Assembly (NCBI RefSeq): GCF_044324875.1
Contig: NZ_CP172185.1
Source: Escherichia coli
Lineage (GTDB): Bacteria > Pseudomonadota > Gammaproteobacteria > Enterobacterales > Enterobacteriaceae
Length of the DNA stretch: 64,000 nucleotides
Strand: one strand, 5' to 3'
Shown: in pieces, positions 24,801 to 27,800 of the stretch
How positions within the stretch are numbered: position 1 is the stretch's first letter
Layout of the letters: each line of letters opens with the position of its first letter
Position numbers: made by a program

Positions 24801-27800
24801 CTGCTGGTGGTGCTGGTGGTGCTGGTGGCGGAAAAAAGATCGGCTTTAGACAATGCAGTATTGGCGGTCTGGAAAGTCGTCAGCGCGCTTTTCAGCGTAC
24901 CGTAGGCGCTAAGTTTAGCGGTAAACGACGATTGCTGATTTGAAATAGGGGTTAGCGTCGCTTTTTGCGCGGCGGTGAGGCTATCAAGGATTGAACTTAA
25001 ATCCAGGCCTGACCCGACTCCCAGCGATGAAATACTTGCCATGCGATTTCCTTTTATCTTTCGACACGTAAAACGAATACCGGGGTTATCGGCCTGAATT
25101 GCGCAAAGTTTACGTTTAATTGTTTTTTTTAATAGCGGGAATAAGGGGTAGAGAAAAGAGTATTTCGGCGACTAACAAAAAATGGCTGTTTGTGAAAAAA
25201 ATTCTAAAGGTTGTTTTACGACAGACGATAACAGGGTTGACGGCGATTGAGCCGACGGGTGGAAACCCAATACGTAATCAACGACTTGCAATATAGGATA
25301 ACGAATCATGGCACAAGTCATTAATACCAACAGCCTCTCGCTGATCACTCAAAATAATATCAACAAGAACCAGTCTGCGCTGTCGAGTTCTATCGAGCGT
25401 CTGTCTTCTGGCTTGCGTATTAACAGCGCGAAGGATGACGCCGCGGGTCAGGCGATTGCTAACCGTTTTACTTCTAACATTAAAGGCCTGACTCAGGCTG
25501 CACGTAACGCCAACGACGGTATTTCTGTTGCACAGACCACCGAAGGCGCGCTGTCCGAAATCAACAACAACTTACAGCGTATTCGTGAACTGACGGTTCA
25601 GGCCACTACCGGTACTAACTCTGATTCGGATCTGGACTCCATCCAGGACGAAATCAAATCTCGTCTGGACGAAATTGACCGCGTATCCGGTCAGACCCAG
25701 TTCAACGGTGTGAACGTACTGGCGAAAGACGGTTCGATGAAAATTCAGGTTGGTGCGAACGACGGCCAGACTATCACGATTGATCTGAAGAAAATTGACT
25801 CAGATACGCTGGGTTTGAATGGTTTTAACGTTAATGGCAAAGGTACTATTGCGAACAAAGCTGCTACAGTCAGCGATCTGACCGCTGCTGGTGCAACGGG
25901 AACAGGTCCTTATGCTGTGACCACAAACAATACAGCTCTCAGCGCTAGCGATGCACTGTCTCGCCTGAAAACCGGAGATACAGTTACTACTACTGGCTCG
26001 AGTGCTGCGACCTATACTTATGATGCGGCTAAAGGGAACTTCACCACTCAAGCAACAGTTGCAGATGGCGATGTTGTTAACTTTGCAAATACTCTGAAAC
26101 CAGCGGCTGGCACTACTGCATCAGGTGTTTATACTCGTAGTACTGGTGATGTGAAGTTTGATGTAGATGCTAATGGCGATGTGACCATCGGTGGTAAAGC
26201 CGCGTACCTGGACGCCACTGGTAACCTATCTACAAACAACGCCGGCATTGCATCTTCAGCAAAATTGTCCGATCTGTTTGCTAGCGGTAGTTCTTTAGCG
26301 ACAACTGGTTCTATCCAGCTGTCTGGCACAACTTATAACTTTGGTGCAGCGGCAACTTCTGGCGTAACCTACACCAAAACGGTAAGCGCTGATACTGTAC
26401 TGAGCACAGTACAGAGTGCTGCAACGGCTAACACAGCAGTTACTGGTGCGACAATTAAGTATAATACAGGTATTCAGTCTGCAACTGCGTCCTTCGGTGG
26501 TGCTAATACTAATGGTGCTGGTAATTCGAATGACACCTATACTGATGCAGACAAAGAGCTTACCACAACCGCATCTTACACTATCAACTACAACGTCGAT
26601 AAGGATACCGGTACAGTAACTGTAGCTTCAAATGGCGCAGGTGCAACTGGTAAATTTGCAGCTACTGTTGGCGCACAGGCTTATGTTAACTCTACAGGCA
26701 AACTGACCACTGAAACCACCAGTGCAGGCACTGCAACCAAAGATCCTCTGTCTGCCCTGGATGAAGCAATCAGCTCCATCGACAAATTCCGTTCATCCTT
26801 GGGTGCTATCCAGAACCGTCTGGATTCCGCGGTCACCAACCTGAACAACACCACTACCAACCTGTCCGAAGCGCAGTCCCGTATTCAGGACGCCGACTAT
26901 GCGACCGAAGTGTCCAACATGTCGAAAGCGCAGATCATCCAGCAGGCCGGTAACTCCGTGCTGGCAAAAGCTAACCAGGTACCGCAGCAGGTTCTGTCTC
27001 TGCTGCAGGGTTAATCGCCTGAATGCCTCTCAAACCCCGCTCCGGCGGGGTTTTTTACAATTGGCTTTTTGCGTAACCCCCAAATAACCCCTCATTTCAC
27101 CCACTAATCGTCCGATTAAAAACCCTGCAGAAACGGATAATCATGCCGATAACTCATATAACGCAGGGCTGTTTATCGTGAATTCACTCTATACCGCTGA
27201 AGGTGTAATGGATAAACACTCGCTGTGGCAGCGTTATGTCCCGCTGGTGCGTCACGAAGCATTGCGCCTGCAGGTTCGACTGCCCGCGAGCGTGGAACTT
27301 GACGATCTGCTACAGGCGGGCGGCATTGGGTTACTCAATGCCGTCGAACGCTATGACGCCCTACAAGGAACGGCATTTACAACTTACGCAGTGCAGCGTA
27401 TCCGTGGCGCTATGCTGGATGAACTTCGCAGCCGTGACTGGGTGCCGCGCAGCGTGCGACGCAACGCGCGTGAAGTGGCACAGGCAATAGGGCAACTGGA
27501 GCAGGAACTTGGCCGCAACGCCACGGAAACTGAGGTTGCGGAACGTTTAGGGATCGATATTGCCGATTATCGTCAAATGCTGCTCGACACCAATAACAGC
27601 CAGCTCTTCTCCTACGATGAGTGGCGCGAAGAGCACGGCGATAGCATCGAACTGGTTACTGATGATCATCAGCGAGAAAACCCGCTACAACAACTGCTGG
27701 ACAGTAATCTGCGCCAGCGGGTGATGGAAGCTATCGAAACGTTGCCGGAGCGCGAAAAACTGGTATTAACCCTCTATTACCAGGAAGAGCTGAATCTCAA

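What the first reader, a model, noticed from the sequence alone, without database searches (positions are those of the whole stretch)
25308..27014. 568-aa fliC allele with long Thr/Ala/Gly-rich central domain (non-K-12 H antigen)
Termini are canonical flagellin, but the central hypervariable region (roughly residues 180-480) is long and compositionally biased, giving 568 aa where I recall K-12 H48 at about 498 aa. The H serotype cannot be assigned from sequence alone here. Together with the chromosomal blaCTX-M-1 it would help place the strain in a lineage.
Basis: partly seen in the sequence, partly recalled or inferred. Interest (0 to 1): 0.4.

Follow-up and report, generated by a model that had tools for sequence, protein, structure and literature searches.

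The report
Ordinary H45 flagellin gene (fliC)
This is an intact, normally placed E. coli flagellin gene of the already catalogued H45 antigen type, not the K-12 H48 type, and the exact protein is already in public databases, so it is a useful typing marker but not a discovery.

Summary
The ORF is real: 25308..27014 (+), 568 aa, with Flagellin_N, FliC-central and Flagellin_C domains. It sits between fliDST and fliAZ, has a sigma-28 promoter upstream and a terminator straight after the stop codon.

The central domain does not match K-12 H48 (65/305 identities in a forced alignment, no BLASTP hit).

It is an H45 allele. The central domain is 98.4-100% identical in nucleotides to 85 complete E. 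coli genomes. These include IAI39 (published O7:H45), TW11681 (published O19:H45) and MIN10 (titled O126:H45).

The exact protein is already on record (161 contigs), and the exact DNA is in two draft assemblies.

The Thr/Ala/Gly bias is real (48.9%) but normal for E. coli flagellin centres (K-12 45.1%).

The locus is a recombination patchwork, as is usual for fliC.

The outer domains are homologous end to end with the sheath-forming H7, Achromobacter and Azotobacter flagellins, and they keep the D4 dimer-site asparagines (N306/N310). An H7-like outer-domain sheath is therefore plausible but untested.

H45 occurs in several unrelated lineages, so on its own it places the strain only weakly.

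Verdict: already known, low interest.

The parts
25308..27014 (+). fliC coding sequence, 568 aa plus stop codon; H45-type flagellin
   Evidence: ORF. Pfam and NCBIfam assignments. The exact protein is on record as UPI000BE1E243 / EGF8259487.1 on 161 contigs. The exact DNA is in L004 and L006.
25308..25832 (+). N-terminal conserved D0/D1 coding part (aa 1-175)
   Evidence: Flagellin_N at residues 5-140. 164/175 residues are identical to K-12. At the nucleotide level nt 171-520 differs from every complete-genome allele by at least 8 mismatches, which marks a mosaic end.
25572..25601 (+). LQRIRELTVQ (aa 89-98), the D1 segment corresponding to the TLR5-recognition site of Salmonella FliC
   Evidence: Motif located. 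The TLR5 role is inferred from established knowledge of Salmonella FliC residues 89-96 and was not tested here.
25833..26747 (+). Central hypervariable outer-domain region (aa 176-480, D2-D4), the H45 antigenic determinant
   Evidence: 100% nucleotide identity to KE55, AST215 and GMF065; 98.9% to IAI39; 98.4% to MIN10 O126:H45. No alignment to K-12 H48. Homologous end to end to 7SQD (E 1.3e-42), 7SN4 (E 2.3e-36) and 9N59 (E 2.2e-32).
26220..26246 (+). GNLSTNNAG (aa 305-313), the counterpart of the D4 dimer site of EHEC H7 flagellin (N319/N323 in H7 correspond to N306/N310 here)
   Evidence: Alignment; positions. The role of N319/N323 in sheath formation and motility comes from PMC8931119. The motif is conserved in relatives.
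26748..27011 (+). C-terminal conserved D1/D0 coding part (aa 481-568)
   Evidence: Flagellin_C at residues 482-566. 83/88 residues are identical to K-12. There are 11 nucleotide mismatches to AST215 although the centre and the downstream spacer are identical to it.
25205..25231 (+). Sigma-28 (FliA) class 3 promoter of fliC: TAAAGGTT-N11-GACGATAA
   Evidence: Pattern match; sequence. Function is inferred from the known FliA consensus.
27035..27056 (+). Intrinsic terminator of fliC: CCCCGC-TCCG-GCGGGG followed by T6, starting 21 nt after the stop codon
   Evidence: Sequence; terminator scan.
25086..25112 (-). Divergent sigma-28 promoter of fliDST: TAAACTTT-N11-GCCGATAA (context)
   Evidence: Pattern match.

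Best explanation
The feature is the chromosomal fliC gene of an E. coli strain and encodes the H45 flagellin. Transcription comes from a FliA (sigma-28) class 3 promoter and ends at a hairpin terminator just after the stop codon. The conserved N- and C-terminal helices (D0/D1) are predicted to polymerise into the filament core. The 305-residue centre folds into surface-exposed outer domains (D2-D4) that carry the H45 epitopes. The allele is a recombination mosaic: an H45 centre identical to that of strains AST215, KE55 and GMF065, joined to conserved ends and flanks of different ancestry. What is shown here: ORF integrity, domain content, locus context, promoter and terminator motifs, sequence identity to H45-labelled strains, and homology of the outer domains to solved flagellins. 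What is inferred: expression, motility and serological H45 reactivity.
For: The ORF and its neighbours fliT, fliS, fliD on one side and fliA, fliZ, tcyJ on the other are, and the same order appears in K-12 and other genomes. Flagellin_N, FliC and Flagellin_C domains are, and NF005953 passes its cut-off. 85 of 5,426 complete genomes carry the full-length type at 97.8-98.7% nucleotide identity. All 85 with the full centre are at least 95% identical, and three are 100% identical. The H45 anchors are IAI39 = O7:H45:K1 ST62 (PMC8281228; centre 98.9%), TW11681 = O19:H45 (PMC6630672; full length 97.8%) and MIN10, whose record title is O126:H45 (5 aa differences). The protein differs by only 2-8 residues from the other 568-aa cluster members that were compared. 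The exact protein is on 161 public contigs and the exact DNA is in two assemblies. The alignment-based AlphaFold model (pLDDT 83.7) has the EHEC H7 filament 7SN4 as its top PDB match (E 2e-53), followed by 9N59, 7SN7 and 7SQD.
Against: The H45 type-strain sequence (4106-54, AY250023.1) was not available, so the assignment rests on three serotype-labelled proxy strains. At least two of those labels may themselves be in silico calls. No complete RefSeq genome has the identical DNA (best 98.7%). Expression, motility and antiserum reactivity cannot be tested. A second flagellin locus elsewhere in the genome cannot be excluded from a 64-kb window.
Confidence: 0.93

Rival explanations
1. The allele is the K-12-type H48 flagellin with an expanded centre.
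For: The conserved ends are 94% identical in protein (164/175 and 83/88). The nearest-background complete genome, SC418, does carry an H48 family fliC.
Against: There is no BLASTP alignment between residues 213 and 463. A forced alignment gives 65/305 identities with 72 gaps. blastn of the 920-nt centre finds nothing in K-12 or SC418. K-12 does not align at the D4 motif.
Confidence: 0.005
2. It is an H45-like sequence that is serologically a distinct or new H antigen, because of substitutions in the centre or the unusual conserved ends.
For: Residues T100 and S482 are rare among cluster members. S329 is shared only with AST215 among the sequences compared. The DNA of both conserved ends has no exact match among complete genomes.
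Against: The centre is 100% identical in DNA to three complete genomes and differs by 1-3 residues from IAI39 and MIN10. T100 and S482 lie in the buried, conserved D1 region, not in the surface domains. Variation within an H type is typically this small (PMC7018530).
Confidence: 0.03
3. The gene is an intact H45 fliC, but it is not the antigen the strain displays. The strain could be non-motile, or it could express another flagellin locus (flkA/fllA/flmA type) that represses fliC.
For: This cannot be excluded from 64 kb. Shigella genomes keep the same fliC type without expressing flagella (PMC7018530). Some H45 genomes carry an IS2-disrupted fliC.
Against: In this window fliC, fliD, fliS, fliT, fliA and fliZ are all intact, and both sigma-28 promoters are present. 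No second flagellin ORF or fljA-like repressor was seen in the window.
Confidence: 0.06

Closest known systems
E. coli H45 flagellin (type strain 4106-54, GenBank AY250023.1; for example IAI39 WP_000079698.1, MIN10 WP_021547003.1, AST215 WP_001578518.1)
   Same: Same length (568 aa) and same locus. The centre is 98.4-100% identical in DNA, and there are 2-5 amino-acid differences overall.
   Different: The nucleotide sequence of both conserved ends differs by 1.5-4% from these alleles. T100 and S482 are minority residues.
EHEC O157:H7 flagellin, cryo-EM filament PDB 7SN4 (Kreutzberger et al. 2022, PMC8931119)
   Same: The proteins align end to end (E 2e-201 for the whole protein, E 2.3e-36 for the centre alone). 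They share the same D0-D4 layout and the D4 dimer-site Asn pair. 7SN4 is the top Foldseek hit.
   Different: It is a different H antigen. The centre is much more divergent than the conserved ends, and H7 is 17 residues longer with several insertions. A sheath has been shown for H7 only.
Achromobacter sp. MFA1 R4 flagellin (PDB 7SQD) and Azotobacter vinelandii flagellin (PDB 9N59)
   Same: These give the best (7SQD, E 1.3e-42) and third-best (9N59, E 2.2e-32) sequence matches to the centre. Their lengths are similar (559 and 567 aa) and the outer-domain fold is homologous.
   Different: They come from other genera and have different conserved ends. In Achromobacter the second dimer-site residue is Glu, and the sheath is tetrameric.
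E. coli K-12 H48 flagellin (NP_416433.1, 498 aa; core structure PDB 8CXM)
   Same: Same locus, same promoter architecture, and about 94% identical D0/D1 ends.
   Different: The central domain is unrelated. K-12 also has a roughly 200-nt 3'UTR with two REP elements (the FliX sRNA), which is absent here.

Membership tests
FliC/FljB flagellin (Pfam PF00669 + PF00700; NCBIfam NF005953) | N-terminal helical D0/D1 region | tested here: met
   PF00669 at residues 5-140, E 1.6e-46, 158 bits against a cut-off of 26.6.
FliC/FljB flagellin (Pfam PF00669 + PF00700; NCBIfam NF005953) | C-terminal helical D1/D0 region | tested here: met
   PF00700 at residues 482-566, E 1.5e-31. NF005953 matches the whole protein at 813.6 bits against a cut-off of 619.
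FliC/FljB flagellin (Pfam PF00669 + PF00700; NCBIfam NF005953) | Position in the fliDST / fliC / fliAZ locus with a sigma-28 class 3 promoter | tested here: met
   Gene order is the same as in K-12. TAAAGGTT-N11-GACGATAA lies at 25205-25231.
FliC/FljB flagellin (Pfam PF00669 + PF00700; NCBIfam NF005953) | Polymerises into a functional filament (motility) | not testable with these tools
   Needs a motility assay or electron microscopy.
E. coli H45 antigen type | Central variable region near-identical to fliC of strains typed as H45 | tested here: met
   IAI39 (O7:H45, PMC8281228) is 98.9% identical and MIN10 (O126:H45) 98.4% over 900 nt. TW11681 (O19:H45, PMC6630672) is 97.8% identical over the full length. 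All 85 full-coverage matches are at least 95% identical, so the group is discrete.
E. coli H45 antigen type | Match to the type-strain reference sequence (4106-54, AY250023.1) as used by SerotypeFinder and ECTyper | not tested
   The reference accession was identified, but the sequence is not in any collection available here.
E. coli H45 antigen type | Agglutination with H45 antiserum | not testable with these tools
   This is a serological test.
E. coli H45 antigen type | fliC is the expressed flagellin (no flkA/fllA/flmA-type second locus) | tested here: inconclusive
   No second flagellin ORF was seen among ORFs of at least 150 aa in the 64-kb window. The rest of the genome is unseen.
E. 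coli H48 (K-12) antigen type | Central variable region matches the K-12 fliC centre | tested here: not met
   There is no BLASTP HSP in the centre, and a forced alignment gives 65/305 identities. There is no blastn hit to K-12 or SC418.
Outer-domain-sheath (ODS) flagellins (EHEC H7 / Achromobacter type, PMC8931119) | Large D2-D3-D4 outer domains homologous to those of H7 and Achromobacter flagellin | tested here: met
   phmmer with the centre alone gives 7SQD E 1.3e-42 and 7SN4 E 2.3e-36, both aligned end to end. The top Foldseek hits are 7SN4, 9N59, 7SN7 and 7SQD.
Outer-domain-sheath (ODS) flagellins (EHEC H7 / Achromobacter type, PMC8931119) | Conserved D4 dimer-interface residues (H7 N319 and N323) | tested here: met
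   H45 GNLSTNNAG aligns with H7 GNLTTNNAG, so N306 and N310 are conserved.
Outer-domain-sheath (ODS) flagellins (EHEC H7 / Achromobacter type, PMC8931119) | Outer domains dimerise or tetramerise into a sheath on the assembled filament | not testable with these tools
   Needs cryo-EM or negative-stain EM of H45 filaments. The paper does not mention H45.

The most novel reading that the evidence does not exclude
H45 filaments may carry an H7/Achromobacter-type outer-domain sheath. The whole D2-D4 region is homologous to those flagellins, and the two asparagines whose mutation destroys the H7 sheath and impairs motility are conserved (N306/N310). If so, H45 strains would share the prolonged-tumble, viscous-environment motility behaviour described for EHEC H7. 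This would extend a known structural class to one more H type and would not define a new kind of system.
Probability: 0.5. Interest if true: 0.2.

Novelty: already known. Interest (0 to 1): 0.1.

Why it matters
The practical value is for typing. The strain can be recorded as H45 by genotype, a minority H type found in 85 of 5,426 complete genomes (1.6%). Combined with an O type and MLST from the rest of the genome, this helps epidemiological tracking of a strain with a chromosomally fixed ISEcp1-blaCTX-M-1. The exact allele, including its unusual conserved ends, is shared with draft assemblies GCA_044682625.1 and GCA_021148225.1. Both are otherwise near-identical across about 20 kb but lack the ISEcp1 insertion. 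The allele plus the insertion junction therefore makes a specific marker for this sub-lineage. Biologically nothing here is unexpected: fliC mosaicism and H-type exchange between lineages are textbook behaviour.

Tried and rejected
(1) A single-sequence AlphaFold model was unusable (pLDDT 46.9). It was replaced by a model built from a 23-sequence alignment.

(2) Wang et al. 2003, the original H-antigen fliC sequencing paper, is not held by DOI or by my guessed PMC id. H45's published length and morphotype could therefore not be read.

(3) A literature search for an H45 lineage with chromosomal blaCTX-M-1 returned false positives in which 'H45' is a strain name. No lineage was identified.

This was solved by pairing strain names with 'H45'.

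(5) Rfam has no FliX model. Only generic terminator-like and REP-like hits appeared.

(6) The search for homologous proteins with the centre returned few hits because of the candidate cap. The exhaustive representative search returned only 28 hits, because clustering at 50% merges E. coli H types through their shared ends. Neither gives a reliable census of the family.

(7) I looked for a donor of the divergent 5' conserved end. The best match is 98.1%, to alleles of other H types such as Ecol_316 and O139:H1 strains, so no donor could be named.

(8) My first guess that CAR17266.1 was UMN026 (H18) was wrong. The 568-aa type is present in IAI39, published as O7:H45, which fits CAR17266.1 being an IAI39 protein.

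(9) The paper search for PDB entry 9N59 found nothing. The entry was identified later from the Foldseek description.

Full report
OBSERVATION. It carries Flagellin_N (residues 5-140, E 1.6e-46), the enterobacterial 'FliC' central domain (326-472, E 8e-22) and Flagellin_C (482-566, E 1.5e-31). It passes the NCBIfam cut-off for 'FliC/FljB family flagellin' (NF005953, 813.6 bits against 619). It lies in the canonical locus, with fliT-fliS-fliD divergent on the - strand and fliA-fliZ-tcyJ-dcyD downstream on the + strand. K-12 and the other genomes fetched have the same order.

A sigma-28 promoter (TAAAGGTT-N11-GACGATAA) sits at 25205-25231, and the divergent fliD promoter (TAAACTTT-N11-GCCGATAA) at 25086-25112. 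A GC-rich hairpin followed by T6 at 27035-27056 terminates the gene. The central region, residues 176-480, is 48.9% Thr+Ala+Gly against 23% in the ends. K-12's own centre is 45.1%, so the bias is a general property of E. coli flagellin outer domains and not a peculiarity of this allele.

NOT H48. K-12 FliC is 498 aa. BLASTP aligns only residues 2-212 and 464-568 of the window protein to it. A forced global alignment gives 164/175 and 83/88 identities in the ends but only 65/305, with 72 gaps, in the centre. blastn of the 920-nt centre finds nothing in K-12 or in SC418, another H48 genome.

WHICH H TYPE. Megablast of the gene against 5,426 complete E. coli genomes finds the conserved ends almost everywhere, but only 85 genomes have a full-length match, at 97.8-98.7%. 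With the 900-nt centre alone, the same 85 genomes match over the full length, all at 95% or better. Three of them (KE55, AST215, GMF065) are 100% identical. Everything else is a partial match, so the type is discrete.

Three serotype-labelled strains anchor the type. IAI39 is listed as O7:H45:K1, ST62, phylogroup F (PMC8281228), and its centre is 98.9% identical. TW11681 is described as O19:H45 (PMC6630672) and is 97.8% identical over the full length. MIN10 is deposited as 'O126:H45' and differs by 5 residues. The other 568-aa members of the 90% cluster that were compared, which include Shigella boydii, S. dysenteriae and S. flexneri entries, differ from the window protein by only 2-8 residues. 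I therefore assign H45.

The caveat is that the type-strain sequence (4106-54, AY250023.1; PMC4753304) was not available to me. The assignment rests on proxies.

ALREADY ON RECORD. The exact 568-aa protein is in NCBI and UniParc (EGF8259487.1, UPI000BE1E243) on 161 contigs. The exact DNA is in draft assemblies GCA_044682625.1 (L004) and GCA_021148225.1 (L006). L004 is 99.93% identical to the window over 20.7 kb, so the same lineage has already been sequenced. No complete RefSeq genome belongs to it. The best flank identity is 99.3% and the best fliC identity is 98.7%.

MOSAIC STRUCTURE. Against AST215, all 23 nucleotide differences lie in the conserved ends (nt 138-501 and 1444-1665), and the centre is identical. 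A segment-by-segment comparison gives the following.
- fliA and fliZ-tcyJ have 0 mismatches to SC418, which carries an H48 fliC.
- The fliC centre and the fliC-fliA spacer have 0 mismatches to AST215.
- The 3' conserved part of fliC, which lies between those two AST215-identical segments, has 11 mismatches to AST215.
- The 5' conserved part is closest, at 8 mismatches, to a 595-aa allele of another H type (Ecol_316). No exact donor exists among complete genomes.
- fliD and fliS-fliT differ by about 2% from all complete genomes.
- L005 has the same fliC nt 1-1440 in a different background, with 27 mismatches in amyA-fliS.

This is the expected signature of repeated recombination at fliC, with the H-specific centre moving between lineages (general picture in PMC7018530). 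It also means the H type on its own is a weak lineage marker.

HOW IT WORKS. From established flagellin biology, the D0/D1 helices form the filament core and contain the TLR5-recognised segment, here LQRIRELTVQ at residues 89-98. The centre forms the exposed outer domains that define the H antigen.

The H45 centre is not an orphan. It aligns end to end with three solved flagellins: Achromobacter (7SQD, E 1.3e-42), EHEC O157:H7 (7SN4, E 2.3e-36) and Azotobacter vinelandii (9N59, E 2.2e-32). It is also 47% identical (E 2e-61) to the centre of a 595-aa E. coli allele and 65% identical to an Atlantibacter hermannii flagellin.

An AlphaFold model built on a 23-sequence alignment (pLDDT 83.7) has as its best PDB matches 7SN4 (E 2e-53), 9N59, 7SN7 and 7SQD, all ahead of Salmonella FliC. 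Global TM-scores are only 0.36-0.57, as expected when inter-domain angles differ.

In the H7 and Achromobacter filaments the D2-D4 domains dimerise or tetramerise into an outer-domain sheath. Mutating N319 and N323 at the D4 dimer site of H7 disrupts the sheath and strongly reduces motility (PMC8931119). H45 keeps both residues (GNLSTNNAG, N306/N310), and the motif is conserved in relatives. An H7-like sheath on H45 filaments is therefore a reasonable inference. It has not been shown, and that paper does not mention H45.

Hu and Reeves placed H45 in a cluster 'very distant' from the main E. coli flagellin clusters (PMC7018530). The homologies above show that its outer domains are nevertheless clearly related to the H7 type and to the type represented by the 595-aa allele.

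SIDE OBSERVATIONS.
A 3,003-bp ISEcp1-blaCTX-M-1 transposition unit occupies 13291-16293. The transposase and CTX-M-1 proteins are exact matches. The unit is flanked by a 5-bp direct repeat, TCTAT, and the site is empty in the otherwise identical L004.
(ii) FliD is 471 aa rather than 468 aa because of a 9-nt tandem duplication (CCACCAGCA, about 24820-24828). It is the only fliD difference from L004 and L006, and the variant is seen on only 4 public contigs.
(iii) The fliC 3'UTR is only about 40 nt and lacks both REP elements that make up most of the K-12 FliX/FliX-S sRNA. The K-12-type region is present in 3,503 of 5,426 complete genomes, so the short form is a common polymorphism.

VERDICT. 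The H type is resolved as H45. This is a known allele of a known antigen type in its normal place, with no novelty and low interest beyond typing.

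Noticed in passing
window 13286-16298: A 3,003-bp ISEcp1-blaCTX-M-1 transposition unit occupies 13291-16293 (tnpA 13477-14739, bla 15027-15902). Both proteins are exact matches to ISEcp1 transposase and CTX-M-1. The unit lies between fliE and a DUF5503 ORF and is flanked by a 5-bp target-site duplication, TCTAT (13286-13290 and 16294-16298). The same site is empty in the otherwise 99.93% identical contig L004.
   Followed up: yes
window 24820-24828 (within fliD 23627-25042, - strand): FliD is 471 aa instead of the usual 468 aa because of a 9-nt tandem duplication (CCACCAGCA, adding Thr-Ser-Thr in a Ser/Thr run). It is the only fliD difference from same-lineage contigs L004 and L006. 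The exact protein is on only 4 public contigs, including a 5.75-Mb one that also carries the exact FliC and is probably the source genome.
   Followed up: partly
window 27015-27177 (fliC-fliA spacer): The spacer is 163 nt against about 320 nt in K-12, and the fliC 3'UTR is only about 40 nt. Both REP elements that make up most of the K-12 FliX/FliX-S sRNA are absent, so a K-12-type FliX cannot be made here. The K-12-type region is present at 80% coverage or more in 3,503 of 5,426 complete genomes, so the short form is a common polymorphism.
   Followed up: partly
window 27178-29382, compared with L007 (SC418, NZ_LR778147.1): fliA, fliZ and tcyJ are 100% identical (0 mismatches in 2,205 nt) to strain SC418, which carries an H48 fliC. 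The genes on the other side of fliC (fliD, fliS, fliT) differ from SC418 by about 2%. So there is a recombination breakpoint at or next to fliC, with an H-type difference between close backgrounds.
   Followed up: partly
L005 (GCA_014582935.1), fliC at 10001-11707: This contig encodes the same exact FliC protein, with nt 1-1440 identical, but in a different chromosomal background (27 mismatches in amyA-fliS, 17 in fliZ-tcyJ). That suggests the allele has moved between lineages.
   Followed up: partly
90% protein cluster of the window FliC: Shigella boydii, S. dysenteriae and S. flexneri entries carry the same H45-type fliC (568 aa, 5-8 residue differences), although Shigella is non-motile.
   Followed up: no
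NZ_CP060083.1, NZ_CP060061.1, NZ_CP060057.1 (strains G1/2, G6/7, G8): In these three human isolates the H45 fliC is split by an IS2 insertion. These are natural knock-outs of the same allele type.
   Followed up: no
NZ_CP090612.1 (420-kb record, pig): The only H45 fliC copy that the tool counts as plasmid-borne appears to be the one on this 420-kb record. It could be a chromosomal fragment, a chromid-like replicon or a mis-assignment.
   Followed up: no
PMC7018530 compared: Hu and Reeves (2020) describe H45 as sitting in a Firmicutes-dominated flagellin cluster very distant from the main E. coli clusters. Here its outer domains are clearly homologous to H7 (E 2.3e-36) and 47% identical to a 595-aa E. 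coli allele. The 'atypical' placement looks like an effect of the clustering method rather than a foreign origin.
   Followed up: partly
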